IMG/VR virus record: IMGVR_UViG_3300044629_000710
Reading direction: 5' to 3' (one strand)
Origin: an uncultured virus (IMG/VR IMGVR_UViG_3300044629_000710)
Taxonomy: Duplodnaviria > Heunggongvirae > Uroviricota > Caudoviricetes
DNA: 64,000 nt
Positions 1 through 44,030 of this stretch are shown here, piece by piece (positions within the stretch are counted from its first letter, which is position 1; the number at the start of each line of letters is the position of its first letter). The notes beneath the pieces are model-generated. The model searched no databases and was not told where the DNA came from. It worked only from the letters and a program-made list of their open reading frames with translations. The translations under genes were made by a program, and so were the position numbers.

Positions 1-1348
1 CGGACCGACAGGGAACACGGGAGACACAGGACCAATCGGACCAATCGGACCGACAGGGAACACTGGACCAACTGGACCACAAGGACCAATCGGACCAATC
101 GGACCGACAGGGAACACGGGAGACACAGGACCAATCGGACCAATCGGACCGACAGGGAACACTGGACCAACTGGACCACAAGGACCAATCGGACCGACAG
201 GGAACACGGGAGACACGGGACCACAAGGAGTTACTGGTTCAACCGGTCCCAGAGGTGGAATACTATATCAACTCCATATCAGTACGGCACTTGTAGATCC
301 GGGAATTGGATATTTCAGGTTCAGTCAATCCGCCGCCAACATTGCTGGCGTTACCGGAATGGTAATTGATTCTTATTCTCTAGGAACCAAAGGTGCTACC
401 GGATGGATTGAAACATGGGATGACAGCACAAGCAGCAACAAGGGATATCTTTATATTCAAAATGCGTATAACAACGATCAAGTTCTCGTACTTGGCGTGA
501 ATAGCGTATCTCTGATAACCGGAGGAACACCACCGTATTATTATGAGGTGGGTGTATCTTACATATCGGGAACCATATCCAGTGCCGTTACCGGAACCCT
601 GTTTTCAATTGACTTCGTAAGAGTCGGAGATAAAGGAGAAAGCGGAACGGTTGGCGATGCTGGACCTACCGGTTTCACAGGTCCGACCGGTCCGCAAGGA
701 ACTACAGGAAACGGAGTTACTGGGTTCAATGTAATCGGTGACAATCTCTACTACTGGTTCTCCGATTGGACAGGAACGACATTCGGCACACTACAGAATG
801 CCGGATATGTTCGTGGTCCTACGGGAGCCGACGGTCAAGATGGTTCCGGTGGGGGTGGTGGTGGTGGCACACTCACATACGCGGTATTTACTCCTTTCTA
901 TAGCGAAGCACCAGGTTTCACTTTTCCGACTCTTGACACCCGCAATAACATTCCTGTTCTGGATTTTGATTCTACGAATAATGAGACCACTCACTTCCGA
1001 GGCATGATACCGCAAGGAGCGGCTTTCTCTTATCTACAGACCAACATCTACTGGAGCGCGACCGAGGCAACAGCGGGAACGGCAACATGGCAGGTAGCAT
1101 TTGATAACATAAGGACAAACCCCGACATAGACAGCGACAGTTTTGACCAAGGATACACGGGTCGCTCCTACTTTCAGGGAACGACATCCGGTCTTCCGGT
1201 CTCCATCGGCATCACTTGCCAGAATGTTGACAGCCTGACCGGAGGCGACCCGTTCCGCTTGAGATTGAGACGGGTCGGATCGGACTCGCTTGATACGCTT
1301 ATCGGGGATGCAGAGTTCTTGTTCTTTGAAGTGAGAGGAGTGACCTGA
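1..1348 (+). CDS. Collagen-like virion fibre protein, 5'-truncated (frame open from position 2)
   Basis: Frame 2 reads [18 protein letters not shown]... from base 2 and continues into the tracked ORF 359..1348. Contains G-X-Y triplets, a WDDS module, a GNGVTGF..LYYW module, a poly-Gly linker and a C-terminal domain paralogous to that of 10171..12195. Confidence 0.8.
2..228 (+). repeat. Tandem coding repeat (99 nt, 90 nt and a partial copy) encoding Gly-X-Y collagen
   Basis: ggaccgacagggaacacgggagacac restarts at 2, 101 and 191; copies are near-identical. Confidence 0.9.
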
Positions 1349-2193
1349 TGTACGACTTCCAAGGACCAGCAGGTGATGACAATACAGTCAGACCAAGGAT
1401 CAATATCGTCCGCGGCAGTCAAGCCACGGATTCGGAAGGTCTAACATATTCCGGTGCCACGATGGATGGTATCGCCGCAATCACCGGTGCTCCGCTGACG
1501 CTTGCTGGGTGGGCAATAATGGATGTGCCGGACAGCAACTTCGGGACGGTTGTTGGTGTGGGGGCAAGAAGAACCAGTGTGGGCGACAACAATACCCGTT
1601 TCAGATACGAACTGTATTACACCAATACGGTCGGTCTGGGCGCAAGGTACACAAACGCTGCCGGAAATTCCACTAGAACGGTATCTTTTAGCAATGCAGG
1701 TGCCAACGGAGTAACGGCGGGACAATTGTTTCACATTGCGGGTACATTTGGCAGAACGGGTGGAAGCGGTACTCCAACAAATACCTCGCGTATTGTTTTG
1801 TATATTGATGGAATTTCGGAGGGTGCCTTGAATGGGTCCACCGTAAGACCAGAATTGAGTTCTCTTGTCATCGCCGACGGTGGTTTCAACAAGACAAGCG
1901 TCGGTTGTGCCATGGCCACAAATACCGTGGGTATCGGTGGTGCAGAAAATTACTGGAACGGAAGGATAGGAGAGGTTGGAATATGGGACACGGAGTTGAC
2001 TGCTGAGGAAATACAATCCCTTGCAGAGGGATATAGGTGCGATCAAGTCAGACCACAGAACCTGAAGTTTTACATGCCTCTCGCAGGAAATAGACAGATT
2101 GTGGTGGGAGAGAACATGAGGGCTTCCCTTGAGTCTACCACTCTTGACACAAAGCCATCGCCCGCACAGCAACACCCGCAAAGAATGGGATAA
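1348..2193 (+). CDS. LamG/concanavalin A-like lectin domain protein (putative adhesin)
   Basis: LTLAGW, FHIAGTF, IVLYIDG, WNGRIGEVGIWDTELTAEEIQSL are typical LamG_3 motifs; TGATG stop/start coupling to the upstream fibre gene. Confidence 0.75.
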   Translation: MYDFQGPAGDDNTVRPRINIVRGSQATDSEGLTYSGATMDGIAAITGAPLTLAGWAIMDVPDSNFGTVVGVGARRTSVGDNNTRFRYELYYTNTVGLGARYTNAAGNSTRTVSFSNAGANGVTAGQLFHIAGTFGRTGGSGTPTNTSRIVLYIDGISEGALNGSTVRPELSSLVIADGGFNKTSVGCAMATNTVGIGGAENYWNGRIGEVGIWDTELTAEEIQSLAEGYRCDQVRPQNLKFYMPLAGNRQIVVGENMRASLESTTLDTKPSPAQQHPQRMG

Positions 2194-2204
2194 AGGAGAC
2201 GAAG

Positions 2205-2690: not shown

Positions 2691-2756
2691 TATGCCTACT
2701 TACTATGTGGGAGATACTCCGACCATGACTGAACACTAAGCACAGAGGATCGTCCG

Positions 2757-3866
2757 TTGGCACTCATTCGTTTCAAGAGAGGTGCGACTGCTGGCATCGT
2801 TCCCACGGGGCTGACCTATGGCGAACCGGCTGTCAATGTCGCCGACCAAATCCTCTATGTCGGCGGGGTGGACGGGGAGCCAATTCCGATCGGGGGCGGA
2901 GGGGCAGGTTCGCAGGGACCGACCGGCAACGGTGTCACCGGCTTCACGGTCATCGGCAACAACCTGTACTACTGGTACATGGGTCCGACTGGAGCGACCT
3001 TCGGGGAACTACAGAACGCAGGTTCCATCGCGGGCGGGGTTGAGACCAGATGGAGCAACCCGCTTCCGACCACAGCAACCAACCTCGCGGGTGTTCCTGC
3101 GGGCACTACATTTGATATCGGAACGACGGCGGTGGCGATCCTTGAACGCATTCTCTATCCATATCAAAATGTGAGTTTTACAACCCTCAGCAACGGTCTT
3201 GCCACGACATATGAACTCGGACAGACCGCAAGCGGAACTCCCGGCAGCAAGACTGTCAGTTGGGGAACGACTGGTCCGACGGCCAACTGGGTGTCTAACA
3301 GCGGAAGAATATCATACAGCGGGTTCGTGAGCGGAACTCTTGCCACGAACTTTGAACTTTATGATTACGACAGCAATCCGTTTGCCAATAGTGCTTCGGT
3401 GTCCTATCCGGCATTGAGAGCCACATCAATCGGCAACAACACCCTCACCGTATCCATCACCGGACAGCAGGTCATGGGAGATCCGTTGTTGAGTCGGACA
3501 GATGCCGCACGGTGGTGGTCCAAGATGTACTGGGGCAAGTCGGTAAACGATGACCTCAAGAATCCCTTTGCCCTGATTGATGGCATAACCGGCGGACTTC
3601 TGATAACGACTACCAGCAGCACATCAAGGAGCATCACCGCGGGCGCGAGCGATGCCTACTTCTATCTCTTCGTCCATGACTATTACGAGTTGACCAGCAT
3701 GACGCTCGCGGGATTTGATGTGTCATTGAGAGAACCCATCGGCAGCGGCATCACCACACACTCAGTTGCCAACGCACAAGGGTTCACCGCAGACTACAAG
3801 ATATACAGAAGCCAGTTCCAGTTGCCCGGCAACTTGACCATAGGGATCGCATACGGACCGGATTGA
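2757..3866 (+). CDS. Virion structural/fibre protein with Mtd_N-like N-terminus
   Basis: TTG start after GAGG; IRFKRG..LTYGEPAVN..DQILYVG N-terminal motif; Gly/Thr-rich; C-terminal domain shared with the next two genes. Confidence 0.65.
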   Translation: MALIRFKRGATAGIVPTGLTYGEPAVNVADQILYVGGVDGEPIPIGGGGAGSQGPTGNGVTGFTVIGNNLYYWYMGPTGATFGELQNAGSIAGGVETRWSNPLPTTATNLAGVPAGTTFDIGTTAVAILERILYPYQNVSFTTLSNGLATTYELGQTASGTPGSKTVSWGTTGPTANWVSNSGRISYSGFVSGTLATNFELYDYDSNPFANSASVSYPALRATSIGNNTLTVSITGQQVMGDPLLSRTDAARWWSKMYWGKSVNDDLKNPFALIDGITGGLLITTTSSTSRSITAGASDAYFYLFVHDYYELTSMTLAGFDVSLREPIGSGITTHSVANAQGFTADYKIYRSQFQLPGNLTIGIAYGPD

Positions 3867-3873
3867 TTAGACC

Positions 3874-5061: not shown

Positions 5062-5070
5062 GGAACCAAG

Positions 5071-8000
5071 ATGGCAAACTACTTTCCGTCAAATCTAGAG
5101 CCAGACAACAGGTTACAGAGAGTCACCAACGACGCTTGGTTCTGGTTGAACCAGACCACGGATATCGATTATACCGTTGATGGTATCATCGATTCGGTCA
5201 GCGGAGGTTTGGCAAGCGCTGGATTTAAATGGAGTGGTAGTGTCAATACAAGCGCAAAAACCAGATATGTTCTTGCCATAGCACATGATACATCTGGACT
5301 CGGTGCGGCAATTCCCCTCGCCAGCGATGTCAGAATCAACGATGTCATCCAGAAAAATGACCCCGCTGCCTTCCAGTGCCATCTTGATGTCAGCAACACG
5401 AAAGTCAGCACCTCTCTTGTCTACAACAAGCATGACGGCAAGTTCTACTACTATGACAATACGGCAACAGAGTGGAAAGTGGTCGGATCCGGTGCCGCCG
5501 GTGCTAACATCATTGCATCCTATAGCCTGACGGGTGTCGCTTCGTTCAATTCGACCGATTTTGATTTGGGTTCAACGGGTCATGTCTCTCTTACTGCTGG
5601 AATCGTACGCAGCGTTAATGGCATATTTGGTCCGAATGTATCCCTTCCGTTGGCTGATACCAGCGGCAGGACGGGTTTTGCCTCATTCAATGGCAACAAC
5701 TTCGTGGTATCCGCTACAGGCACCGTGTCGCTGAGTGCCGCCGGACCTGCGGGTGCGATTCAATACAAGGGTGCAGATGGATCACTCTCCGGTGATTCGG
5801 GGCTGGTCTTCAACAGTGCGGCAAACGCACTCGTTCTCGGAAGTGGGCATGTTGTTCAGTTTGGTGATGGCACGACGCAAGGAACCGCCAGAAATTTCTT
5901 CGGAATCACCGGTCCGACAAACACATTCTTCCCCGCAGGCATGTCCGGAAGCGGCTATACCGGCGATCGTCTATTGGTGGCAACTGGTCCTTCGGCGGAC
6001 CCGTTCCGTAACTATGTTCGGTTCAATAACCAGTGGTTCCAGTATGGAGTCGCCGGTGTCGGACAGGGACCAAAGGGAGACAAGGGAGATTCCGGCACAA
6101 ATGGCGTAACCGGTGCAACAGGCACCGCAGGAACTACGGGAACGACCGGAGCGAGCCTGACCGGATTCTCCGTCGATCAATCCACAGGCATCCTTTCGGC
6201 TTCTTATTGGTATGCCGATGGTAGTGCATCCGATCCGTTCGTGATTGGCTATGTTCGTGGAGATACGGGCAATACGGGAAACACTGGTGCAGCCGGAACG
6301 GCAGGCACGACAGGTAACGGAGTCACTGGCTTCACGGTCAGCGGTAATGACCTCTACTATTGGTACATGGGTCCGACCGGAGCGACATTCGGTACGCTAC
6401 AGAATGCAGGTAATGTCCGCGGAAACACCGGACCAACAGGAGCGACGGGTGTCGCCGGAACGACAGGAACCACAGGCAACGGAGTCACGGGATTCTCCGT
6501 TGTCGGTAATGACCTCTACTACTGGTACATGGGTCCGACTGGAGCGACCTTCGGCAATCTCCAGAATGCAGGTAATGTCCGCGGAAACACCGGACCAACA
6601 GGAGCGACGGGTGCGGCTGGAACTACGGGTGTTACGGGCTGGGGAATAACCGGAGTATCCTACAATGAATCGACTGGTATTCTTTCTGCCAGATATTGGC
6701 GAGAACCGGACACATATAGTAGTGAATTCGACATCGGATATATCCGAGGATCCACGGGTATTGCGGGGACAACCGGAACTACAGGTGCCACGGGACCAAG
6801 AACCGGATCAAGATATGAATACATCACGGCGGGAACAGTTATTGGTACTGCGGGTCAGGTAGTATTTGATAGTGCGTCAAACCCGACACATTTACACATC
6901 AACCGCCTTGATTTTGTAGGAAATAATCTTTACTCCTACATCACATCATGGGACGATAGTGATAGTTCAACCAAGGGATATGTTCATATTGATCCCCGAT
7001 TCGGTGTTGCGGGACTGACGGGAACAATCATATTCAAAATTGTGGGAAGGGTCACGGGAAATTCTTCTCCTGATAGTTCAGCACAATGGTATAAAATGTA
7101 TGGTGAGATAGTCGGGGGAGGAACCGCGAGTATTCCCAACGGAACGGAAGTTTCTCTCAATTTCTTTGCTGTTGGTGAAAGAGGCGATAGTCTTATCGGC
7201 GAAGCCTACACTATTGCTGCTCACTCAAGCCCGTCATTCATCTCGGGTCAACAGGGAGGGGCGAGAAAAGTCGCTTTCTTGTTAGATGATGGGGGAATCA
7301 CATTCGACTATGTTCGCAACTACGATGTGTTCAATAAGTCCGAATTCGAGTTTGCTGTGTCCAATTTCGGGGGAACAATCCCGACAACATACCGTCTCAG
7401 CCCGACGAATTACAGTTTGAATGGTTTGTCTGTGAGTGCGGCTTACATTCAAGGCCCACCTTCTGTCACGGCATACATCTTCGTGGACGCCGCAAACGAA
7501 GGCTCAGGTTTCCCTGTCCCGTTCCCAACGGCGGCAATGAATAGTGTCACCTTCACTTCACAGTCGTTGAGCGGTGCCCCCTTTGGAACCAGTCCCTTGT
7601 TTGGGTCTATCACCATCAGATTGACTGCGACCGGAGCCGGAGCGGATGGGGTGACAAGAAAGGGAGAATCAACGATAACATCAAGATTCACCAACGATTA
7701 CCTCTGGGGTATGACCGGTGGCTCCAGCGTGACTGGTGGTGACCTTGACTGGACGAATGCATACTCACCCTACTGGAATAGGGATTTCACATCAACCAAT
7801 CCTCGCGGTGGCATCATGGATGAATTCGTGTTCGGACCGACATCCGGATGGGTCGGGAACCAGTATCTCTACTTCGCACTTCCGGAAAGAATCTATCAAC
7901 ACGAAGTTGTCACCAACAACAAGACGCTCAAGTGGTTCGTGAACGGGTCTTTGTCTGAAGGTGCCATGTCCCTCCAAGGATTTGACTTGGCTGCGGATGC

Positions 8001-8121
8001 CAAGGGACTGTCCACAATCAATGTCGTGAATGCATCCGGTTATGTCGAAAGATATCGTGTCTGGAGAACAGACCAGTTGTTCGCAAACTCGATGGGAAAC
8101 AATTATCCGACCGTGACCTGA
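5071..8121 (+). CDS. Large collagen-containing fibre protein (1016 aa)
   Basis: G-X-T collagen tracts alternating with globular modules; GVASF shaft repeats; internal 162-nt duplication. Confidence 0.75.
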   Translation: MANYFPSNLEPDNRLQRVTNDAWFWLNQTTDIDYTVDGIIDSVSGGLASAGFKWSGSVNTSAKTRYVLAIAHDTSGLGAAIPLASDVRINDVIQKNDPAAFQCHLDVSNTKVSTSLVYNKHDGKFYYYDNTATEWKVVGSGAAGANIIASYSLTGVASFNSTDFDLGSTGHVSLTAGIVRSVNGIFGPNVSLPLADTSGRTGFASFNGNNFVVSATGTVSLSAAGPAGAIQYKGADGSLSGDSGLVFNSAANALVLGSGHVVQFGDGTTQGTARNFFGITGPTNTFFPAGMSGSGYTGDRLLVATGPSADPFRNYVRFNNQWFQYGVAGVGQGPKGDKGDSGTNGVTGATGTAGTTGTTGASLTGFSVDQSTGILSASYWYADGSASDPFVIGYVRGDTGNTGNTGAAGTAGTTGNGVTGFTVSGNDLYYWYMGPTGATFGTLQNAGNVRGNTGPTGATGVAGTTGTTGNGVTGFSVVGNDLYYWYMGPTGATFGNLQNAGNVRGNTGPTGATGAAGTTGVTGWGITGVSYNESTGILSARYWREPDTYSSEFDIGYIRGSTGIAGTTGTTGATGPRTGSRYEYITAGTVIGTAGQVVFDSASNPTHLHINRLDFVGNNLYSYITSWDDSDSSTKGYVHIDPRFGVAGLTGTIIFKIVGRVTGNSSPDSSAQWYKMYGEIVGGGTASIPNGTEVSLNFFAVGERGDSLIGEAYTIAAHSSPSFISGQQGGARKVAFLLDDGGITFDYVRNYDVFNKSEFEFAVSNFGGTIPTTYRLSPTNYSLNGLSVSAAYIQGPPSVTAYIFVDAANEGSGFPVPFPTAAMNSVTFTSQSLSGAPFGTSPLFGSITIRLTATGAGADGVTRKGESTITSRFTNDYLWGMTGGSSVTGGDLDWTNAYSPYWNRDFTSTNPRGGIMDEFVFGPTSGWVGNQYLYFALPERIYQHEVVTNNKTLKWFVNGSLSEGAMSLQGFDLAADAKGLSTINVVNASGYVERYRVWRTDQLFANSMGNNYPTVT
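6313..6612 (+). repeat. Tandem 162-nt (54 aa) duplication inside fibre gene
   Basis: Unit GNGVTGF.V.GNDLYYWYMGPTGATFG.LQNAGNVRGNTGPTGATG starts at 6313 and at 6475. Confidence 0.9.
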
Positions 8122-8140
8122 TCCAATGAGGAGATGAAAC

Positions 8141-8536
8141 ATGCCTTTGGAATTCAGTTCTAGTTTCACTCAGGATTCGAGAAAAAGTCGGGTATCCAGT
8201 CCCGATACATTCTTCCACCTCATGCACTCGGTGGATGTTGACCATGCCGTTGACCTCATCAATGATGGGATTGGCGATTTCGCCCCTCCTGAGATTTACG
8301 GGAGGAAGGCGATCATCAAGAATGCGATGAGCAGTTTCGCCAGCCCCGAAGGACTTGCGAACAATGATATCGTGATGTGGAACGGGATCAACTGGGAAAT
8401 CTACATGGATGTGAGTAATCCCGAAATGAACAATTCCATCGTTTATGACAAGCGGACCCAGAAGTTTTATCAATACACTCCATCTTCCGGTTGGGTTGCC
8501 ATCGTCGCTGGCGACATAAACGGCGGCACTTATTGA
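8141..8536 (+). CDS. Small structural protein, paralog of the N-terminal domain of 5071..8121
   Basis: GAGGAG RBS; shares D.D..VD.I.D, ND.., DVSN....S.VY.K...KFY.Y.....W with the 5071 N-terminus; ends INGGTY. Confidence 0.65.
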   Translation: MPLEFSSSFTQDSRKSRVSSPDTFFHLMHSVDVDHAVDLINDGIGDFAPPEIYGRKAIIKNAMSSFASPEGLANNDIVMWNGINWEIYMDVSNPEMNNSIVYDKRTQKFYQYTPSSGWVAIVAGDINGGTY

Positions 8537-8544
8537 ACACCCTT

Positions 8545-8551
8545 CTAAATA
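8545..8551 (+). promoter_or_regulatory. T4-type late promoter (CTAAATA)
   Basis: Intergenic TAAATA upstream of a structural gene; gp55 and gp33 are encoded in the window. Confidence 0.7.
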
Positions 8552-8571
8552 AGGGGCTGTGAGGGTAAATA

Positions 8572-10143
8572 ATGGCGAGAGAAAATCGGATCAAGGTCTA
8601 TAGAAGCACGCAGGGAGCGGCTCCTCCGGCGTTCAGTTCGGATGCGGCGGTCGGTCCCACCTTCGGGGAGATGGCGTTCTCCGACGGCATCAACTCGCTG
8701 TTTATTGGAAAGAACGATGGTTCAGTTCTTTGGATTGGTGCAGAAGTCACCGGTGGAGACATCGCACAAGGATTGACGAATGCAGTTCCCACTCAGGCGG
8801 CTGTCAAGGCATATGTTTCTGCTTCTTCGGGCGGCGGATTCATTGTTCAGGGCGAAGATGGTCAGACCATACAAATTGATCCTGCGGACACCCTTACCCT
8901 TACAGGCGGAGAGGGAATTGATGTTTTCAAGTCCTCTACCAAAGAGGATACCCTTGTCTTCCGTGGAGTGACAGCGACAAATACTACGCTCGGAATCGCC
9001 AAGTTTAAGTCAACCGATTTTCAAGTTACGAATGGAGAGGTATCGCTCACGAATGGTCCTCTGTTTTCAGTTCGCGGAGAATCCGGACCTCAAGGAACCC
9101 TGAGCATATCCTTTGGGGATACCCTCACCATCACCGGCGGACCCGGTATCAATGTATTCCTTGACGGGCAGACCGACCAGATTGCCATTCAGGGCGTAAC
9201 TGCAACATCGTCCACACTCGGGGTTGCCGCCTTTGACAGTGGAGACTTCTCCATCAGCAATGGAGTGGTGAATCTGGCAACAACGCTCTTCACGGTGAGA
9301 GATGAGAGACAATCAAGTGTCGTTATCTCAAGAGGAAACACCCTCACCATCACCGGTGGACCCGGAATCAATGTATTCACGGACGGAGCCACCGACCGTC
9401 TTGCAGTTCAGGGAATCACCGCGACCAATACTGAAATCGGAGTCGCTTCTTTCAGTGCTACGAATTTTACAGTAAACTCTGGAGCAGTAACTTCCAAATC
9501 TATAAGTGTCATTGCGGGAAACGCAGAAGGTTTTTCTTATTCAACAAATATAGGTTCCTCTATCACCATCACCGGCGGAAACGGAGTCAAGACCAAACTG
9601 ACGCAAATTGTTACCGGAGGAGAGCAGAGTCCTGATGCGGATTCAATAACCATTGAAGGTGTAAATGCAACATATACAACCAAGGGTGTTGCATCCTTCA
9701 AATCAACTGATTTTACCGTCACGAATGGTGAAGTTGGACTGACAACCGGACCTCTTTTCCTTCTTCGGGATGAGAAAAACAGCACGACTGACATCGCTTT
9801 CGGGAACACCCTGACCATCACGGGCGGACCGGGTGTCAATGTGTTCCTGAATGGGCAGACCGACCAGATCGCCGTTCAAGCCATTACCGCCGATTATACC
9901 ACACTCGGTATCGCTTCATTCAAGCAAGGTGACTTCATTGTTTCCTCTGGTGCCGTATCTCTCACATCCCAACTTGTCACCTCGGTCAACGGCTTGACCG
10001 GAGCGGTCACGGTTGTCTCAGACCTACCCCTTGCCAACACTACAGGCACTACAGGTGTTGCCGCATTCAATGCCAACTTCTTCAGCGTCAGTGCGACAGG
10101 AACAGTCTCCCTGACCACGGTAGACGGCGGCACATGGCCGTGA
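8572..10143 (+). CDS. Repetitive fibre shaft protein with Mtd_N-like N-terminus
   Basis: RIKVYRS..FGEMAFSDG..SLFIG N-terminus; about five 75-80 aa TLTITGG.G..../G.ASF...DF.V..G.VSL units; ends VDGGTWP. Confidence 0.7.
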   Translation: MARENRIKVYRSTQGAAPPAFSSDAAVGPTFGEMAFSDGINSLFIGKNDGSVLWIGAEVTGGDIAQGLTNAVPTQAAVKAYVSASSGGGFIVQGEDGQTIQIDPADTLTLTGGEGIDVFKSSTKEDTLVFRGVTATNTTLGIAKFKSTDFQVTNGEVSLTNGPLFSVRGESGPQGTLSISFGDTLTITGGPGINVFLDGQTDQIAIQGVTATSSTLGVAAFDSGDFSISNGVVNLATTLFTVRDERQSSVVISRGNTLTITGGPGINVFTDGATDRLAVQGITATNTEIGVASFSATNFTVNSGAVTSKSISVIAGNAEGFSYSTNIGSSITITGGNGVKTKLTQIVTGGEQSPDADSITIEGVNATYTTKGVASFKSTDFTVTNGEVGLTTGPLFLLRDEKNSTTDIAFGNTLTITGGPGVNVFLNGQTDQIAVQAITADYTTLGIASFKQGDFIVSSGAVSLTSQLVTSVNGLTGAVTVVSDLPLANTTGTTGVAAFNANFFSVSATGTVSLTTVDGGTWP

Positions 10144-10170
10144 CATGACTGATACAAAAGGTTTTTCGTA

Positions 10171-12195
10171 ATGCCCCGTAACAATCGCATCAGAATTCTT
10201 CGCTCCGAGACGGTGGGTCAGAACGCAACTGACCTGACCGCAGGTGAGCCATTCATCAACATCGCAGAGAGACGGCTCGTCGTGGGTGGCACAGGAAGCA
10301 ACACCCCCATCGGCTTCAGGAGCGAGCGGGATAGTGTCTGGTCCGTCAACGGCAAGACCGGAGCATATGCCTTGCCTCTCGCTTCGGTTCAGGGTGGATC
10401 AACTCCCGCGGTTACTGGTGTTGCGATGTTTGATTGCAACAACTTTGTCATAGACCAATTCGGCAAGGTATCGGTTGGATTTGGGGACCAATGCTTCCAG
10501 TGTCCTCCGGGGGCATGTGATTGGCCAAACGGTTCAAGCACTCGGTGGGGCGGAATCGGTGCCACATTCGACGAGAGCGGACGGCTCATGGCCTTCATCT
10601 TGAATGTGAACGGATTGACCGAGGCGGGAGAATCGTCCCGTTCACAATACATTCCCATCTTGCAGTCGGGAACAACCAAGAAAATCACGGCAGAGAAATT
10701 CATCTCGGACAATGCTGCGATATTTACCGCAAAGACAAATACAGGTCAACTGTCCATCACCAAGGACACGGGAACCAACAGCGTTGATTTTGCCATCGTC
10801 ATGGGTGCGGTCGCTGCGGGGGATCAGGGTCTCGTCAAGGGAGCCAGTGCGTTCCAGTACATCACCCAGAACACCGTCAAGTCGATCAACGGTCTCACCG
10901 GTGATATCGGCTGCATCGCGGTCACCTGTGCCGCACAGTCCTTCTCGGGATTGCAAACCTTCCTTCATGGCATTTCGGGTGCGAGTGCAGATTTGGGTAG
11001 GGCACGGATATCGGGTCTGAACTATCCGACTGGAGACGGCAACGACGGCGACTTCATCACGACGGACGGCAACGGCAACCTCTCATGGATAGACATCAAG
11101 GATGCCGTGGGTGCCAGTGCCACCTATTTCATACTTCGGGACGAGAAAGGCAACACATCCCAGATCGATGATGGCAACATCATGACCGTCACGGGCGGAC
11201 CGGGCATCAATGTATTCAAGAATGCCAACGACTCGATTGCCATACAGGGAGTGACCGCCACCAATACCGTGATGGGAATCGCCAGTTACAATTCTAGTCA
11301 ATTCGTAGTTGTAAATGGCTCGGTTTCCACGCTTTCTCTTGGATTGATTGCGGCCAGCGGAGATTATGGAGGTCTTGGGTTCAATCTGGGAGGAACCCTG
11401 ACAATCACGGGAGGGAACGGAATCATCACGGAATTAATTGATTCCGACCTAGATGACACCGCAGATTACATGGCGATCCGTGCCCACGACGCATCCGCCA
11501 CACAAAAAGGTATCGCATCATTCAACTCCTCGCAATTTACGGTCTCCTCGGGTGCGGTGTCGCTTACCTCGGGACTGGTCTACTCCCTCAACGGGCAGAC
11601 TGGCTCGGTGTCCCTGCCGGTCGCGTCAACGAGCCTGACCGGCGTGGCATCGTTCAACACGACCCAGTTCACGGTATCGGCGACAGGACATGTGTCTCTC
11701 GCCACCCCATCGTCAAGTTCGGGAACCAAGACCTACTCCGTCTTCACGGCACTAGACAATCACCCACCGGGAACAAACTATGCCACTTTTGATACCCGTG
11801 CCTCCATCGGTGTCCTTGACTTTGACGGGCTGACCAACGAGGCTGCGGTGTTCGTGGGCATCATTCCCGAAGCCGCCTCGTACGCGAGCATGCAGGCGCG
11901 CGTGAGGTGGATGTCGGCTTCAGCCACCACTGGCAATGTGATATGGGGTATCAAGTGGGAAAACATGAACACCGATTTGGACTCCGAGTCTTATGGCGGC
12001 GTGAGCGAGACCATATCAACCACCGGACTGACCAGCGGTCTGCCCAACAACACCACCATCTCCTGCACGGACTTGGACGGGGTGACAGCCGGAGACCTCT
12101 ACCGAATTTACCTCTATCGCGGTGCCACGGCGACCACGGACACGATGGTCGGCGATGCCCAACTCATCGCGGTTGAGATACGGGGAGTGTCCTAA
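10171..12195 (+). CDS. Fibre protein with Mtd_N-like N-terminus and conserved C-terminal adaptor domain
   Basis: RIRILRS..LTAGEPFIN..RRLVVG; YPTGDG.DG..ITTDGNGNLSW fibre motif; shaft repeats; C-terminus paralogous to ORF 1..1348. Confidence 0.7.
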   Translation: MPRNNRIRILRSETVGQNATDLTAGEPFINIAERRLVVGGTGSNTPIGFRSERDSVWSVNGKTGAYALPLASVQGGSTPAVTGVAMFDCNNFVIDQFGKVSVGFGDQCFQCPPGACDWPNGSSTRWGGIGATFDESGRLMAFILNVNGLTEAGESSRSQYIPILQSGTTKKITAEKFISDNAAIFTAKTNTGQLSITKDTGTNSVDFAIVMGAVAAGDQGLVKGASAFQYITQNTVKSINGLTGDIGCIAVTCAAQSFSGLQTFLHGISGASADLGRARISGLNYPTGDGNDGDFITTDGNGNLSWIDIKDAVGASATYFILRDEKGNTSQIDDGNIMTVTGGPGINVFKNANDSIAIQGVTATNTVMGIASYNSSQFVVVNGSVSTLSLGLIAASGDYGGLGFNLGGTLTITGGNGIITELIDSDLDDTADYMAIRAHDASATQKGIASFNSSQFTVSSGAVSLTSGLVYSLNGQTGSVSLPVASTSLTGVASFNTTQFTVSATGHVSLATPSSSSGTKTYSVFTALDNHPPGTNYATFDTRASIGVLDFDGLTNEAAVFVGIIPEAASYASMQARVRWMSASATTGNVIWGIKWENMNTDLDSESYGGVSETISTTGLTSGLPNNTTISCTDLDGVTAGDLYRIYLYRGATATTDTMVGDAQLIAVEIRGVS

Positions 12196-12878
12196 TGTCC
12201 TACAACCTTGACGGCTCGGTGAGCAACAGCAGGGTCATATTTGATTCTGGGGTTACGGGAACATCTTTACCCCTATCTATCTCATGTTGGTGTTTTTGCA
12301 CGAATGGATTGGATAGCGCGGTCGCCGAGGGAACCAACATGAACATGGTTTCCGTAATGAATTCCGCAAAAACCCACTGGAACTCTTTGTTGTTTGCGAC
12401 TGCAAGCATCAATCAACTGAATGCCAGAATAAGGGCTGGTTCGGTTACTGTTGCCAACCCGACCCCCAGCACGGCTACGGCAAGCGCAACCGGACTGGTA
12501 AACAAGTGGGTTCATGCAGCGGGAGTTTTTGCTAGTGAAACAAGCAGATTTTGCACGGCAAATGGCACGAAATCTTCCGTGCAAACGGCAAGACGATCAA
12601 CCACGGGCATAGTGGATTTAGTCGTCGGTGCTACGGCTGCTTCTCTTACGAGATCCTTTCAGGGGTATTTGGCTGAGGTTGGCATCTGGAACATAGCCCT
12701 GAAAGACGATGACATCAATGCTTTATACAGGGGTGCCAAGCCGACCGCCGTCCAGCCCGACTATCTCGTCCACTATGTGCCTTTCGTTCAGAATACCAAC
12801 GATATCGTTTTTGGTCAATCCCCCAAGACGGTTCAGGGGGCCACCCCGCTCTCTGACCACCCCGCTCGCTACGGCTGA
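12195..12878 (+). CDS. LamG/concanavalin A-like lectin domain protein (paralog of 1348..2193)
   Basis: LSISCW, WVHAAGVF, FQGYLAEVGIWNIALKDDDINAL; TAATG stop/start coupling. Confidence 0.75.
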   Translation: MSYNLDGSVSNSRVIFDSGVTGTSLPLSISCWCFCTNGLDSAVAEGTNMNMVSVMNSAKTHWNSLLFATASINQLNARIRAGSVTVANPTPSTATASATGLVNKWVHAAGVFASETSRFCTANGTKSSVQTARRSTTGIVDLVVGATAASLTRSFQGYLAEVGIWNIALKDDDINALYRGAKPTAVQPDYLVHYVPFVQNTNDIVFGQSPKTVQGATPLSDHPARYG

Positions 12879-12887
12879 CCCAATGAC

Positions 12888-12894
12888 ATAAATA
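12888..12894 (+). promoter_or_regulatory. T4-type late promoter (ATAAATA)
   Basis: Intergenic, upstream of the fibre gene at 12923. Confidence 0.65.
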
Positions 12895-12922
12895 AGGCAG
12901 AACACCCAAAGGAACCAGAGAC

Positions 12923-14551
12923 ATGTTCAACCCACCTACCGGACCGACAAATGGAGCACAGTACACCTACGGCAATGTCGTCTGGCAATACCAGAACCCA
13001 CCCGGTGTCTGGAACATCAAGGATGGAACTCTTGTCGGCACGGATGGTGTCGGTGTGTCCGGTTTCAGGTTGATTGGTAATGACCTGTATTTCCACTATG
13101 TCTATCCGGGTGGGGTCACATCGAGTGAAATCAATCTCGGAACCGTCGTGGGGGCGGGAACGATTGATGGTGGCTTGACCTTCAACTTCCCGTTCAACAA
13201 CAGCAGCGACCGGATCACGCTCGGAGAGACCCTCAACATCTCCGCGACCGGATCAATCCGTGCGTTCGTAGATAGTGGTACAAACACGGTATTCATTGAT
13301 AACCGATTGGCAACTGTATCTGTTACTGGTGTTGCCTCTTTCACCAGTACGGATTTTACCGTTACTACCGGTCGTGTGTCCCTTGACACTACGAGAACGA
13401 CATGGACCTTAAGAGATTCTAAAAATGCCGTCGAAACCGTTGCTTTCCGTGATACCCTGAACATAACCGGCGGAAGAGGAATTGAAACCGTCCTGAGTGG
13501 AGGACTTGGAACACAAGTACCAGTATTTTCCGTGCTCGGAATTACCGCCAGCAACACAACCATTGGTGTGGCATCGTTCAATGCGGGAGATTTCACCGTC
13601 ACCTCGGGTCAAGTATCCCTAACCGGAGGGCTGGTCAACTCGGTCAACGGCAGGACTGGAAATGTTCTGATTCCTCTCGCCAAAACAGACGGAACCACAG
13701 GTGTCGCCTCGTTCAAGAACGGCGACTTCACCGTGTCGGCTGCGGGAGAGGTATCTCTCACTTCAGGCATCGTCAATTCTATAGAGGGTGTTACTGGTGC
13801 TTTGTCCCTAATAGGAACAAACATCATTGTTGCCTCAGCAGGTAAAACCGTCTCTTTATCTGTACCAAATGCCACGGATGGTGCCACTAAGGGTGTCGCC
13901 TCATTCAAGGCGGGCGATTTCGTGGTCGCAACCGGTGTAGTCTCTCTTACATCCGGTCTCGTAAACACAATCAACGGAGCCACGGGCACCATCCTCGCGG
14001 GCGCGGGCGATGACAGGATCGTCTACACCAGCACGACCGGACTGACCACCAGCCCGACCTTCCTGTTTGACGGGAACACGCTGACCTTCGGCGGGGCGAA
14101 CACGCAGATGATGGTCACGGGTCCGACCTTCGCGTTCGGAGACCTGACCAAGGTCAAGGGTGGTGTCTACACGATGTTCGCGGAGAGTGCCACTGCGTTT
14201 AATTATAGTGGTTCTGATGCAATTATTGAAATTGATCTCACGGATGGAACTATTCAGAAAATCAAAAGAACTGGATTGACTCCTAACATTAGGGTAAAAG
14301 TCGCAAATACGGGGTGGTCCAATGTTCCGGACACGGTCCAGAGCGTCGTGGTGTATCTACAGCAGATCGGGTCTTCCCATACCGGAGAATTCCACTCCAG
14401 CATCGTGGCTGACAGAACCGTCTCGATGTTCGGGGTGACAGGCGGCATAGATGTCTTCACCATCAGCCGATATGCAGTGACAAACAGCACCGGACTCACG
14501 ATGGGCTTCTCAATCGCTGTCGGATTGACCGGAGCAGGAATCGCTTTCTGA
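12923..14551 (+). CDS. Fibre protein with GVASF shaft repeats
   Basis: F.PP..PTNG..YTY....WQY N-terminal module; four GVASF..DF.V..G.VSL repeats; C-terminal beta-rich domain. Confidence 0.7.
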   Translation: MFNPPTGPTNGAQYTYGNVVWQYQNPPGVWNIKDGTLVGTDGVGVSGFRLIGNDLYFHYVYPGGVTSSEINLGTVVGAGTIDGGLTFNFPFNNSSDRITLGETLNISATGSIRAFVDSGTNTVFIDNRLATVSVTGVASFTSTDFTVTTGRVSLDTTRTTWTLRDSKNAVETVAFRDTLNITGGRGIETVLSGGLGTQVPVFSVLGITASNTTIGVASFNAGDFTVTSGQVSLTGGLVNSVNGRTGNVLIPLAKTDGTTGVASFKNGDFTVSAAGEVSLTSGIVNSIEGVTGALSLIGTNIIVASAGKTVSLSVPNATDGATKGVASFKAGDFVVATGVVSLTSGLVNTINGATGTILAGAGDDRIVYTSTTGLTTSPTFLFDGNTLTFGGANTQMMVTGPTFAFGDLTKVKGGVYTMFAESATAFNYSGSDAIIEIDLTDGTIQKIKRTGLTPNIRVKVANTGWSNVPDTVQSVVVYLQQIGSSHTGEFHSSIVADRTVSMFGVTGGIDVFTISRYAVTNSTGLTMGFSIAVGLTGAGIAF

Positions 14552-14590
14552 TTTGGCGACCTATCTACTTGATGAACCGGAGATAATGAC

Positions 14591-17500
14591 ATGCATGGAC
14601 CTTTTATTTGGCGGAAGTTGATCAGAAATCCAAATGGTGTTCCGGGAATTCCTCCAGAGCCGCCGGATCCTTGTTTATGTGAAAATGACGGTTTGCAAAT
14701 AACATGTGATGATTCGGGACCGTATAGTTACAGGGTGTGTTATGACACTTATGGCAATTGCGATCCTACCCTGGGTCTTGAACTCTGTGTAAGAGTTCCT
14801 TTTTGTTATGTTGTGACCGGAACATATGAATGCTGCGAAAACCCATCAGGCACTGAATGTGATGGTCCCTGCCCGTGCGTAACGCCTTGTACTCCTGGAT
14901 TTGAATGTTACGAAGAACCCCCACAGCGAATAGGATGCCCACCAGAAAGAGTAGTGGAGTCTGGTTTGTTTTGTGAGCGTCCTTTCGCCGAAACATCCGA
15001 ATCTTCATTGGCAGTAAATTGGATAGCAAATCCGGCACTAGGTACACAGGACGAACAGGGTGTGCCGTTTCCTAATCCATACTATTATCTCCCCGCCGGA
15101 GATACCAAAATTGAATCAAGTCTGCTGTGCCTGAACTACTCTTCGGCAAATACCCAATCTTACAGAAGATTGATGTTGATTTCGGGAAAAAATAGAGACC
15201 TATACGGCGGTCCTTCCTGTGCGTATTATCGAAAAGGATATAATCCAAATTCTGTTTTGGATAATTATCCGTGGGAGGGAATCTCATACGGACTTACCCA
15301 TATCGGATACGAACAGTCTTCCATCGGAAGAGGTTTGGGTGCTGGACAGTCTATATTTGGTGGCACATTCCCCATGGAAGATGCGGTGCTGCAACTTCCT
15401 CTTTTTGGTGCTGAAGAAAGAGGGATTTATGACAATCCGGAGTGTCCCGATTCTCCTTGCTGCGAGGGAAATCTTCCTCCCGACGAAAATTGCTTGATTT
15501 GTGGAGAAGTGTACAATCCCACCAAAGGAGAACCTTCCGATGGATACGGGCATTACCTTCCGAAAGACCAGGGATCAACAGCAGGATATTTCTCATTTGC
15601 CTGCTTCAATCCCCAGTCATATTTGTATAATCCCCGCGTGATGTCAGATCAGGCAAGAAACAGAATCGAGTTTCCCACATGTTCTCTTTGGGCATACATC
15701 AAAGGAATCAGGAACTACATTTACAATGTCGAGAGGCAATACGAATCAACCAGTAATCAAAATTGCGCCGATCTTGGTCCGGAGTTCTGCGCCTGCGGAG
15801 AAACCGCGGCGGACATCAATTGGGCAAACGGAACAAATGACGGCGAATCTTGGTGGAAAAACATCGATCCGGGTGGAACGAATGCCGCCGGTACAAGCAA
15901 TGTTCGATTGGTTCTTGACCAGTTGGAAAATCGCGTCGAGAAGATCAGGGTTTATAACGAATCTTCAGGATCATCATGCGATACTCCAGGAGGATATCAT
16001 CTTGTCACACCAAAAGTATTCCTGTGGGACGCGGATGCTTTCATAAATGCGAGCATACAAGACAGGTGGAAACACATTTACACAATAGGATACTCCAATA
16101 TCCTATGGGACTCTGGTTGTACGAATACTCAAGATACTGTTTTTGATCCAGAAAGTGGCACCACGGGATTTGTTCCCGGTGTTAGAAATGAGATGCTGTA
16201 CATCGATAATGTGTGTCACGAAGTGGGTGTGGGTTCCACGGGAGCGGCTCGACTAATTTCTTGGATGGGATGTGGTGGCGATCCCACACCTGGAGTATAT
16301 GCCGACTATCTTCGTGGACTTCGTTGTGACGGGAGAAACTATGGATCTCCGATACCGACCCAGCAGCCAAGCGAATTTGATTGTACGGATTGCCTTTTGG
16401 ATCGGGATGGAATAAAGGATTGCGAATTTCCTTTCTGGACGGGATATTATGATCGTTCTGTGACTGCGTGCGAGAATTATTCTATTGGAGTTTGCCCGTC
16501 TTCCGTGGTATCCGTGTGCAATTCCGGTGGTTACTGGACTGGTATGTTCTATTCAGCGAATAATAGCGTGTTTCCTATTGGCGATGAAGCAGAAGACCTA
16601 TATCCAGGAAAATGGCAGGTGGCATTTGGAGCCAATAACGGCAATTGTCCATCCAACAGCACTGTATCTAAACTCGCAACTCGAGTGAGTCATGGTTCAG
16701 GAAACAATTGGACGGGTTCGCATGATGTCTACCAATGGTCTGTGGCAATAAAGACAAACAATAAAATGCAGCAATGGGGCGGGGGTGGGTATGATGATCC
16801 AAATGATGGTGGAATAAAAGGCACTCAAGTATACGGTGATGGCTTTAACTATGCTTATGTTAAGTTCCCAAGCACAATCACTGATGTGTCTAAAGTTACA
16901 ATCAGCGGAATACATGGACTTGCTCTGAAATCAGATGGTGGGTTGACTGCTTGGGGATTGTCTGGTTCGTTTGGAGTCGGCCAAAAGTCTGTCCAAAACA
17001 CTCCGTCCACAGGAACCTTTATTGATGTCGCCGCCGGTGGATTCGTTAAGTATTGTGCCGGTCCTCCTCAACAGTTCTATCTGACCAGCGTGTCGGGTGC
17101 CGTGAAAAATACGGGCGAATTGGTCTTGTGGGGAGACAACAATTGGGGTCAGATTGGTCCTGATACTCTCGAGAATCCTTACCAAAGAACTTTCTGTGTA
17201 GACACATTCCAAGGTGGAGCATTCCCACCTCCGGCAATAGTTCCTGCACCTTCAAATGCCGAACTTTCCGCGGAAGGGGGTTGTACGGCAGTTTGTTTTG
17301 GTGGAAGAGCAACAGGAGTGATCACAAATTCTCCAGTAGACGGTGTTCCCCAATACAAAGTAAAGGTGTGGGGGTGGAAAGGATGGACAGCGAATCCTCT
17401 CGTTTATGTAAACTACTTGGATGTTCCTTCCAAGGGGGTTAAGAACATCAAACAACTGGTCATTCTCGACCCCTTCTGTTGTGTCGCATTGAAGCACGAT

Positions 17501-43256: not shown

Positions 43257-44030
43257 ATGAGCGTAGCACTTATCAACGCATCAAAGGCGGCGGCGAACTA
43301 CAAGACGGCGAATGCCGTCAGCCAGTCCGGTCAAACGCCCCCAAACTCGTCAACAGCGACGAATGCCAAGAAGTCAACCGGCTCCGGCAAGATGTACAGC
43401 GTGGAGAGCATTGAGGGTTACCAGAGTGCATCAAGCCTGAACTCGTACGCGGCGTTGTCGGCACAGCAGAAGGCGACGGCAAGCACCAGCGAGGATGTCA
43501 GCATCAAGGGAGCGATTGCTGTCCCCGTGGCGACGGACTTCTCGGAGTCCAAGAAGAGCCTGAACGAAGTTGCGGCTACAAAAGGCCAGTTGGCTTCCGT
43601 CCCCGACATTGATGTCTGCTCTTTCTTGAGCAAGATACCGCCCATCAAGATTGACCTGAATCCGGACTTGGGTGGAGGAAATCAGTTGTCCGATTTGATC
43701 GGTGAGATCAACGGGATCACGCTCAGGGGCATGCAGATGGTATCGGATGCCATCGTCGGGGTGGTCGGTGGGATCGGTGCCGCCATCGGTGACACCGCCA
43801 AGGCAATAGATGATGCAATACCGGACATCAAATGTGGTTCGCCTCCACCCGAGATCACCGTGGACCTTCCTATACCTACGGCTTCGGCCCTGACCCAACC
43901 ACCTGTTCCCGCTGCTCCGACACAGGTAGTTCCCGATGTAGAGTACGGCACGGACCCACAGATCACAATTGAAAGTCCGGATGTGACCGTCAAGAGCATA
44001 GACGATGTCTTGGATGCGGGTGAATTCTGA
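43257..44030 (+). CDS. Hypothetical virion protein
   Basis: 257 aa, Ala/Ser-rich N-terminus and Pro-rich C-terminus, within the baseplate operon. Confidence 0.6.
   Translation: MSVALINASKAAANYKTANAVSQSGQTPPNSSTATNAKKSTGSGKMYSVESIEGYQSASSLNSYAALSAQQKATASTSEDVSIKGAIAVPVATDFSESKKSLNEVAATKGQLASVPDIDVCSFLSKIPPIKIDLNPDLGGGNQLSDLIGEINGITLRGMQMVSDAIVGVVGGIGAAIGDTAKAIDDAIPDIKCGSPPPEITVDLPIPTASALTQPPVPAAPTQVVPDVEYGTDPQITIESPDVTVKSIDDVLDAGEF

What the first reader, a model, noticed from the sequence alone, without database searches (positions are those of the whole stretch)
8141..12195. C-terminal (D/N)GGT-aromatic motif followed by an Mtd_N-like domain in the next gene: possible chained fibre assembly
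Seen: 8141..8536 ends INGGTY and the next gene starts MARENRIKVYRS..GEMAFSDG..LFIG. That gene ends VDGGTWP and the next starts MPRNNRIRILRS..GEPFIN..RRLVVG. A third such N-terminus occurs at 2757 (MALIRFKRG..GEPAVN..ILYVG), an internal IDGG occurs in 12923, and 43257..44030 ends LDAGEF. Established: the IxxxR..GE..N..LxxG domain resembles the N-terminal domain of Bordetella phage Mtd and phage hyaluronidases. Inference: the short C-terminal peptide docks into the N-terminal domain of the next protein, building long or branched fibres from separate subunits (anchor, shaft, shaft plus adaptor, LamG tip).
Basis: partly seen in the sequence, partly recalled or inferred. Interest (0 to 1): 0.7.

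Follow-up and report, generated by a model that had tools for sequence, protein, structure and literature searches.

The report
Peptide plugs chaining phage fibre segments
In this uncultured T4-like phage, two neighbouring fibre genes end in a six-residue tail and the gene after each starts with the small cap domain that also begins phage T4's distal tail-fibre protein; the first tail is predicted to clip into its cap, so the fibre is likely built as a chain of separate, swappable proteins that probably ends in a sugar-binding tip.

Summary
Observation confirmed. 8141 ends INGGTY and 8572 ends VDGGTWP; the next genes (8572, 10171) and 2757 begin with one ~50-residue cap family. It misses Pfam's Mtd_N cut-off but includes the T4 gp37 N-terminus, and T4-like gp36 proteins end in the same DxGx[FY] tail. 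In viral contigs, 79 of 122 IDGGT[FY]-ended genes are followed by a cap; within cap loci, 26 of 38 tail-ended genes versus 15 of 390 others. A 3+3 model of the 8141 tail with the 8572 cap scored 0.84 (best control 0.49; mark reached by 116/157 solved, 2/215 mismatched pairs), with the interface on the motif. Best reading: a gp36-gp37-type joint used twice (anchor, extender, tip carrier). Two additions: 10171 ends in an unannotated CBM-like domain nearly always coupled to a LamG gene with a conserved HPRxY tail; and 43257's tail is conserved in 36/36 homologues without an adjacent cap, so 2757 is a candidate partner in trans. The internal IDGG of 12923 is chance-level; branching is unsupported. 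Binding is unmeasured. This scan noted the same pairing before on other DNA. New variant of a known kind; interest 0.62.

The parts
8141..8536 (+). Anchor protein (131 aa): homologue of the N-terminal 141 residues of fibre 5071, followed only by the plug
   Evidence: BLASTP E 2e-10 to the 5071 N-terminus; PHROG 16122 'virion structural protein' E 2e-5; the anchor role is inferred
8510..8533 (+). Plug 1, GDINGGTY (residues 124-131)
   Evidence: [IV][DN]GGT[YF] in 6 of 6 aligned orthologues; forms the predicted interface
8572..8745 (+). Cap of the extender protein (residues 1-58; GEMAFS, aromatic type)
   Evidence: 24.8 bits on an independent profile; 47 of the first 60 positions invariant in 6 orthologues; predicted contacts at residues 2-12, 14, 18, 27-28, 35
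8572..10143 (+). Extender fibre protein (523 aa): cap, six GxASFxxxxFxVxxGxV shaft repeats, plug
   Evidence: repeats counted; orthologues 419-523 aa with a variable middle (38 of 300 invariant) and fixed ends
10120..10140 (+). Plug 2, VDGGTWP
   Evidence: invariant in 6 of 6 orthologues; docking to the 10171 cap is inferred, not modelled
10171..10320 (+). Cap of the tip-carrier protein (GEPFIN, aliphatic type)
   Evidence: 27.2 bits on an independent profile; 21.3 bits on A2
10171..12195 (+). Tip-carrier fibre protein (674 aa): cap, four shaft repeats, C-terminal jelly-roll domain
11713..12192 (+). C-terminal CBM6/CBM35-like jelly-roll domain with no Pfam family; likely adaptor for the LamG protein and/or sugar-binding head
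   Evidence: AF2 pLDDT 94; VIA Z 12.3, rmsd 2.5, 126 aligned to CBM6 1uxz; 2560 clusters at E<=0.001; no match in 50,697 cultured phage records
12195..12878 (+). LamG-like protein (227 aa), start overlapping the upstream stop, ending HPARYG; likely tip adhesin
   Evidence: Pfam Laminin_G_3 E 1.7e-11; coupling and H-P-R-x-Y tail conserved
359..1348 (+). Second fibre ending in the same jelly-roll domain (whether its start is cut by the contig edge was not checked)
   Evidence: 39% identity over 160 aa, E 1e-35
1348..2193 (+). Second LamG-like protein, ending HPQRMG
   Evidence: Pfam Laminin_G_3 E 7.5e-9
2757..2900 (+). Orphan cap (gene 2757-3866); the upstream gene ends ILGLI, with no plug
   Evidence: 45.4 bits; Pfam Mtd_N E 0.057; PHROG long tail fibre distal subunit E 0.02
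43257..44030 (+). Orphan plug protein (257 aa) just after the gp5-like baseplate hub gene, ending LDAGEF; candidate trans partner of the 2757 cap
   Evidence: 36 of 36 homologues end [IL]DxG[EV][FI]; context; the pairing is inference only
5071..5493 (+). Same anchor domain as 8141, here fused directly to shaft repeats

Best explanation
Genes 8141, 8572 and 10171 likely build one chained side fibre, in which the C-terminal [IV][DN]GGT[YW] tail of each protein is predicted to plug into the N-terminal cap of the next, as T4 gp36 joins gp37, and a LamG protein probably docks on the jelly-roll domain at the far end. Shown here: the motifs, their adjacency far above chance, the cap family shared with T4 gp37, and conserved ends around a shaft of variable length. 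Predicted (joint 1 only): three tails lie along the first strand of three caps (residues 6-12), and the terminal aromatic residue packs against Y10, R11, S12, P18, V27, G28 and A35. Inferred: trimeric state, attachment of 8141 to the virion, joint 2 (8572 to 10171), fixed order rather than self-polymerisation of 8572, and the LamG joint through its HPxRYG tail.
For: Adjacency from the plug side: 79 of 122 genes ending IDGGT[FY] with a called neighbour are followed at once by a cap (127 matches in all, 5 without a called neighbour). From the cap side: 34 of 74 seed caps follow a strict plug and 45 of 74 a relaxed one; among the other gene pairs of the same 80 loci, 26 of 38 plug-ended genes against 15 of 390 others precede a cap. 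The motif is terminal: 73 terminal against 9 internal in 529 proteins, 10.5 expected from shuffles. Ends are kept in 6 of 6 orthologues of both 8141 and 8572 while the shaft varies from 419 to 523 aa. The 8141 domain is fused to a shaft in 5071 but ends in a plug in 8141. Complex model, 3 caps + 3 tails: score 0.84, best of 3 controls 0.49; the mark was reached by 116 of 157 solved and 2 of 215 mismatched pairs (rough here); runs agree in at least 92% of contacts; partner pLDDT at least 68; interface residues 120, 122, 124-131. No PDB chain of this cap family or of gp36 was found by sequence, which lowers the odds of a pass from memory. T4 gp37's N-terminus scores 53 bits on the cap profile, and 4 of 4 gp36 genes examined end DFGYY, DYGTF, DFGTY, DFGTF. 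Trimeric gp36 binds the N-terminal region of gp37 (PMC3004832, passages). Tip: 51 of 57 loci have a coupled ORF over 150 aa after the jelly-roll domain; 47 of the 51 end in the strict H-x-R tail and 3 more do by eye.
Against: No binding was measured. One control reached 0.49. Only joint 1 was modelled, with my own alignments and six chains, unlike the calibration. 43 of 122 plugs have no cap directly behind them, and 29-40 of 74 seed caps have no plug before them. In a cultured example (S-CAM9) the cap's upstream gene has no plug. The contigs are related and the two scans share some contigs, so the p-values are overstated. A plug-to-cap code is not significant after dereplication (p 0.097), and the window's plug 1 (T at position 4 before an aromatic cap) goes against the raw trend, so nothing shows why 8572 would not polymerise on itself. 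Fold searches with the cap monomer were inconclusive.
Confidence: 0.8

Rival explanations
1. The tail is a folding or trimer-closing motif of its own protein, and the genes merely sit together in a fibre cluster; the proteins attach to the virion separately.
For: 43 of 122 plugs lack an adjacent cap. GG-containing motifs also occur inside fibre shafts, e.g. ANGGTY within T4 gp36.
Against: The control within the same fibre clusters still gives 26/38 against 15/390. The tail sits on unrelated folds and on a 65-aa protein that is only cap plus plug. In 3 inspected misses the cap is one gene further on, behind a small gene (L327-L329). The predicted interface is the motif itself. gp36-gp37 binding is known in T4.
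Confidence: 0.08
2. The joint is real but not ordered: any plug fits any cap, so 8572 can add to itself and fibres vary in length or part order.
For: 8572 carries both ends; 38 of 125 complete cap genes also end in a plug. 10 of 30 extender-to-next pairs have the same cap type. The code test is not significant after dereplication.
Against: 20 of 30 extender-to-next pairs differ in cap type, 18 of them aromatic then aliphatic as in the window (the downstream type is partly set by my search pattern). The unusual WP end of plug 2 is invariant in 6 of 6 orthologues, and the 10171 cap has Phe where the pocket Ala is nearly invariant.
Confidence: 0.25
3. Branched fibre: internal DGG motifs such as the one in 12923 offer side docks for caps such as 2757.
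For: IDGGL is kept in the one relative found (87% identical). Earlier scan notes mention multi-DGG hubs in giant viruses (untested here).
Against: Internal motifs occur at chance level, 9 against 10.5. The 12923 motif lacks the aromatic residue at the plug position. A better candidate for 2757 exists in the conserved terminal plug of 43257 (36 of 36).
Confidence: 0.05
4. The jelly-roll domain of 10171 is itself the receptor-binding head, and the LamG protein is an independent or loosely associated component.
For: The fold matches CBM6/CBM35 sugar-binding modules (Z 12.3). In 2 of the 4 scored genome loci with a next gene, that gene lacks the HPR tail (L355, L356).
Against: The domain is conserved (about 50% identity over 150 diverse carriers; 98% against the nearest relative's whole protein), which suits an adaptor. 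Start-stop coupling and a fixed C-terminal tail on the LamG gene are seen in 47-50 of 51 loci.
Confidence: 0.2

Closest known systems
Phage T4 long tail fibre distal half, gp36-gp37 joint (NC_000866)
   Same: The downstream protein starts with the same cap (53 bits on the cap profile); the upstream protein ends in DxGx[FY] (VQDFGYY; relatives LDYGTF, IDFGTY, IDFGTF); genes are adjacent; gp36 trimer binds the gp37 N-terminal region (PMC3004832, passages).
   Different: Here the joint is used twice in series with an extender that has both ends. There is no gp34, gp35 or gp36 family hit in the cluster (PF03903 only E 0.12); the shaft repeats and tip differ. The papers I read do not describe the T4 interface at motif level.
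Pfam PF18454 Mtd_N (Bordetella phage BPP-1 Mtd; streptococcal phage hyaluronidase HylP N-terminus)
   Same: Small N-terminal beta domain with an IxxxR..GE..LxxG pattern; 12 of 42 caps in my alignment hit PF18454 at E<=0.1, best 1e-16; Mtd sits at the ends of tail fibres (PMC2408619, passages); the gene before mtd, bbp9, ends in a diverged LADLGGIA.
   Different: The window's caps miss the cut-off; Mtd's N-terminus scores only 4.3 and 11.7 bits on my two profiles; structural matches are weak (1yu0 Z 2.5, rmsd 2.6, 39 aligned; 6x3m Foldseek E 1.4). I saw no partner peptide described for Mtd_N.
Separate tip adhesins on trimeric fibres (T2/S16-type gp38; recalled, and mentioned in passages of 10.64898/2026.05.12.724579)
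   Same: A separately encoded binding protein sits directly behind the last fibre gene.
   Different: Here the tip is a LamG fold with a conserved C-terminal HPRxY tail and the carrier ends in a CBM-like jelly roll; no sequence family is shared.
Chain-like fibres of podophages A1002, GP4, VP1 (PMC13730344, sections 11 and 12 read)
   Same: A fibre is assembled from several separate proteins, with beta-sheet augmentation.
   Different: Those are dimers threaded on one rope protein, not end-to-end trimers; no cap or DGG tail is described in the sections read.

Membership tests
Pfam PF18454 Mtd_N | Score at or above the gathering cut-off of 26.3 bits | tested here: not met
   2757: 13.8 bits; 8572 and 10171: no hit
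Pfam PF18454 Mtd_N | Same fold as the Mtd / HylP N-terminal domain | tested here: inconclusive
   1yu0 Z 2.5, 7chu Z 2.7, collagen XV trimerisation domain Z 3.3; nothing above 5; monomer model pLDDT 72
Pfam PF18454 Mtd_N | Linked by intermediate sequences to profile members | tested here: met
   12 of 42 members of alignment A2 hit PF18454 at E<=0.1, best 1e-16; the window caps score 25-45 bits on a profile of such caps
T4 gp36-gp37-type joint | Downstream protein begins with a gp37-like N-terminal cap | tested here: met
   T4 gp37 53 bits, relatives 30-45 bits on A2; window caps 17-21 bits on A2 for the two not in its training set
T4 gp36-gp37-type joint | Upstream adjacent protein ends in [DN]xGx-aromatic | tested here: met
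   met for 8572 and 10171, not for 2757
T4 gp36-gp37-type joint | Physical binding of the upstream trimer to the cap | tested here: inconclusive
T4 long tail fibre (gp34-gp35-gp36-gp37 orthologues) | gp34, gp35 and gp36 family members in the locus | tested here: not met
   none among the 12 genes from 359 to 17731 in Pfam or PHROGs; PF03903 only E 0.12 on 8141; the contig is 42% complete
LamG / concanavalin A-like (PF13385) | Score above the gathering cut-off of 27.6 bits | tested here: met
   12195: 44.9 bits; 1348: 36.3 bits
CBM6/CBM35 carbohydrate-binding modules | Jelly-roll fold | tested here: met
   VIA Z 12.3, rmsd 2.5, 126 aligned (1uxz); many tied rows
CBM6/CBM35 carbohydrate-binding modules | Sugar binding and family-level sequence match | not testable with these tools
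   no Pfam hit for 10171; identity to the CBM rows 8-18%; binding needs a glycan array

The most novel reading that the evidence does not exclude
Plug and cap are a general, coded connector for virion fibres. Variants of a six-residue tail select matching caps, so a phage lays down anchor, extender and tip carrier in a fixed order from adjacent genes and can also join parts encoded 40 kb apart (the gp5-adjacent 43257 tail to the 2757 cap, hanging a fibre on the baseplate hub). A second, undescribed peptide joint (HPRxY tail into a CBM-like adaptor of about 2,500 clusters) mounts exchangeable LamG tips. This would give the molecular rule behind the T4 gp36-gp37 junction and a parts kit for reading fibre architecture straight from genomes.
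Probability: 0.35. Interest if true: 0.82.

Novelty: new variant of a known kind. Interest (0 to 1): 0.62.

Why it matters
That T4 gp36 binds the start of gp37 is long known, but I found no structure or motif for the joint. A six-residue tail and a 50-residue cap make it directly testable with peptides. The pair is very common (about 4,800 viral stretches hold one exact spelling of the tail). If it binds as predicted, fibre order and length can be read from unannotated phage genomes, 'hypothetical' genes can be assigned as anchors, extenders or tips, and segment exchange between phages has a simple physical basis. The adaptor-LamG pair adds a large unannotated family of likely receptor-binding tips that had no match among cultured phages.

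Tried and rejected
Pfam Mtd_N as a direct label: cut-off missed. Sequence searches of PDB with the 2757 cap, cap profiles A2 and A5, T4 gp36, the gp37 N-terminus and adaptor profile A7 gave nothing credible. Fold searches with the cap monomer were inconclusive. Fused plug-cap proteins: no internal cap in 2152 called ORFs. Internal plug and branching: chance level. Plug-to-cap code: p 3e-7 on 85 pairs but p 0.097 on 28 dereplicated pairs, so not claimed. A control scan with a tail-collar C-terminal motif gave only 12 loci; 0 of 11 called neighbours looked like a cap, judged by eye. Two metagenome scans for close relatives found none; only one close viral contig was found. Orphan plugs: 13 of 30 records hold a cap elsewhere, but most records are fragments and no matched control was run. 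The Atlas gave no useful lead for 43257 and only unnamed viral clusters for the adaptor. The reverse test for the LamG tail (do HPRxY-ended genes always follow the adaptor?) was not done. Paper searches: 'Mtd_N' returned mitochondrial DNA papers; 'DGG motif tail fiber phage C-terminus' 0 papers; 'PF18454' 0; DGGTF-type strings 38 papers, none of the 30 listed on phage fibres by title; some searches gave background only. The library lacks most subscription journals.


Full report
Setting. The window is the first 64 kb of a 75.5-kb viral contig, 42% complete. It is a T4-like myovirus: baseplate wedge, hub and PAAR genes lie at 38-58 kb. Positions 359-17731 hold twelve co-oriented genes, most of them fibre-like.

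Observation. Of 203 ORFs called in the contig, only 8141, 8572 and 43257 end in a [DN][GA]Gx-aromatic tail, and only 2757, 8572 and 10171 start with the cap; the next-best N-terminus scores 2.7 bits. Two of the three caps directly follow a tail (4e-4 on 203 ORFs, 3e-3 on an assumed 75 genes).

What the cap is. Pfam Mtd_N is missed: 13.8 bits for 2757 against a cut-off of 26.3, no hit for the other two. A profile of 135 caps from other viral contigs scores 2757, 8572 and 10171 at 45.4, 24.8 and 27.2 bits, best of 1220 shuffles 9.9. The family bridges to Mtd_N, since 12 of 42 members hit PF18454 at E<=0.1. It clearly includes T4 gp37's N-terminus (53 bits), while Mtd itself scores 4.3 and 11.7 bits. 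Fold searches with a monomer model (pLDDT 72) were inconclusive. So it works like Mtd_N, but the closer named relative is gp37.

Adjacency, both ways. A scan for genes ending IDGGT[FY] estimated about 4,800 viral stretches and returned 126 loci. Of 127 matches, 122 had a called neighbour and 79 of those start with a cap. A scan for a cap motif returned 123 loci. In the 80 with full flanks, 34 of 74 seed caps follow a strict tail and 45 of 74 a relaxed one. Among the other gene pairs of the same loci, 26 of 38 tail-ended genes precede a cap against 15 of 390 other genes. These contigs are related and the two scans overlap in part, so I rely on the effect size, not the p-value. The motif is terminal: 73 terminal and 9 internal matches in 529 proteins, 10.5 expected from shuffles. 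That removes the internal IDGG of 12923 and the branching idea. Misses are real: many tails are followed by small coiled-coil-like, neck-like or podovirus-type genes (read by eye). In three inspected cases the cap came one gene later.

Conservation in this clade. Six aligned orthologues of 8141 all end [IV][DN]GGT[YF]. Six of 8572 range from 419 to 523 aa, with 47 of 60 cap positions and all 8 terminal positions invariant but only 38 of 300 in the middle. The body of 8141 is homologous to the first 141 residues of fibre 5071 (E 2e-10), where it runs straight into the same shaft repeat found six times in 8572 and four times in 10171. So 8141 plus 8572 looks like a 5071-type fibre cut in two, with tail and cap at the cut. 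Proteins with both ends are common: 38 of 125 complete cap genes.

Model of joint 1. Three copies of 8572 residues 1-85 with three of 8141 residues 92-131 scored 0.84 (runs 0.84, 0.85, 0.84), best of three controls 0.49. The mark was reached by 116 of 157 solved and 2 of 215 mismatched pairs, counts that hold only roughly for this job. Runs agreed in at least 92% of contacts, and partner pLDDT was at least 68. The confident interface is tail residues 120, 122 and 124-131 against cap residues 2-12, 14, 18, 27-28 and 35. I found no solved chain of this family by sequence. The model supports binding; it does not show it. Joint 2 was not modelled.

The known case. T4 gp36 ends VQDFGYY, and three T4-like relatives end LDYGTF, IDFGTY and IDFGTF, each before a capped gp37. 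A cyanophage cap examined in the same call has no tail upstream. PMC3004832 (passages) states that trimeric gp36 binds the N-terminal region of gp37. PMC5537660 and PMC12143355 (passages), the 2026 T4 cryo-EM preprint (passages and section 6) and the Klebsiella RBP preprint (passages) give no motif for the joint. The T4 preprint has a low-resolution model of the distal rod; its figures and supplements were not visible to me and may bear on novelty. BPP-1 bbp9, the gene before mtd, ends LADLGGIA, and Mtd lies at fibre ends (PMC2408619, passages). PMC8822698 (passages) describes a tailspike N-terminal domain like the collagen XVIII trimerisation domain, the weak top match of my cap model, without a partner peptide. 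PMC13730344 (outline, sections 11 and 12) describes a different chain. Motif searches found no phage paper, in a library that lacks most subscription journals.

Order. In 30 extender-to-next pairs the cap types run aromatic then aliphatic 18 times, as in the window, the reverse twice, and the same ten times; my search pattern favours an aliphatic downstream cap. The link between tail residue 4 and cap type fades on dereplication (p 0.097), and plug 1 of the window goes against it. A code is therefore possible, not shown.

The tip. The last 160 residues of 10171 recur at the end of gene 359 (39%), and both genes overlap the start of a LamG gene. The domain has 2560 clusters, no Pfam family, no match in cultured phages and a CBM6/CBM35-like jelly-roll fold (pLDDT 94; Z 12.3, rmsd 2.5, 126 aligned). 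In 57 viral loci, 51 have a coupled ORF over 150 aa behind it; 47 of these end in the strict H-x-R tail, 3 more by eye, and one is an 818-aa exception. By profile, 46 of 54 called neighbours are LamG-like. In two loci the chain is minimal: tail, then a 213-aa cap-plus-adaptor protein, then LamG (L272, L277). 25 of the top 150 carriers start with a cap. Docking of LamG on this domain is inferred from pairing alone.

The orphans. All 36 homologues of 43257 end [IL]DxG[EV][FI], with the third position free as in gp36. The gene follows the gp5-like hub and has no cap behind it; 2757 has a cap and no tail before it. Three tails and three caps match in number, so a joint in trans is a fair guess, but more than half of the genome is missing and the pair was not modelled.

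Earlier notes of this scan report the same pairing in other phages and giant viruses. They gave me the gp36-gp37 and Bbp9 leads, which I checked; they are not independent support. Two look-ups for the adaptor-LamG pair found nothing.

Verdict. The feature is real. It is most likely a gp36-gp37-type peptide joint used twice in one fibre (confidence 0.8), with a likely second kind of joint at the tip. The kind of joint is known from T4; its motif-level mechanism, spread and serial use were not in the papers I could search. New variant of a known kind, interest 0.62.

Noticed in passing
window 359-2193 and 11713-12878; L270-L326: An unannotated CBM-like C-terminal domain (2560 clusters, no cultured-phage match) is nearly always coupled to a LamG gene ending H-P-R-x-Y-[AG]; probably a second peptide joint for a tip adhesin.
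   Followed up: partly
window 43257-44030: Gene of no known family between the gp5-like hub and the PAAR gene; its C-terminal [IL]DxG[EV][FI] is kept in 36 of 36 homologues, with no cap gene behind it.
   Followed up: partly
L003, L018, L021, L083, L088, L090, L123, L327-L329: Plug-ended genes are often followed by a small gene (60-115 aa in L327-L329) that looks coiled-coil by eye; in three inspected loci the cap gene comes next. Possibly a fibre chaperone.
   Followed up: partly
L005, L038, L047, L058, L072, L082, L101: Proteins of about 80 aa ending IDGGTY stand before genes that look like podovirus internal virion genes by eye: possible minimal tail anchors whose capped partner lies elsewhere.
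   Followed up: partly
L154, L157, L159, L167, L183, L190, L205, L333: A variant tail without Asp ([IV][SAF]GGTF) goes with a variant cap whose first strand reads TPIxLY; the clearest hint of plug-cap co-variation, but likely one lineage.
   Followed up: partly
L144:1226-1423: A 65-aa protein made only of a cap and a plug, between two other plug-cap joints.
   Followed up: no
window 8546, 8566, 12889: TAAATA boxes just before 8572 and 12923, like the T4-type late promoter core (recalled); not tested against chance.
   Followed up: no
window 14591-17731: Cys- and Pro-rich 1046-aa protein with an RCC1-like C-terminal region; only 37% identical to its counterpart in the close relative L264, where most neighbours are 76-100%. 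A fast-changing candidate receptor-binding protein.
   Followed up: no
window 2205-2690: 161-aa gene after the first LamG gene, PHROG 25252 of unknown function; resembles tail-fibre assembly proteins (recalled).
   Followed up: no
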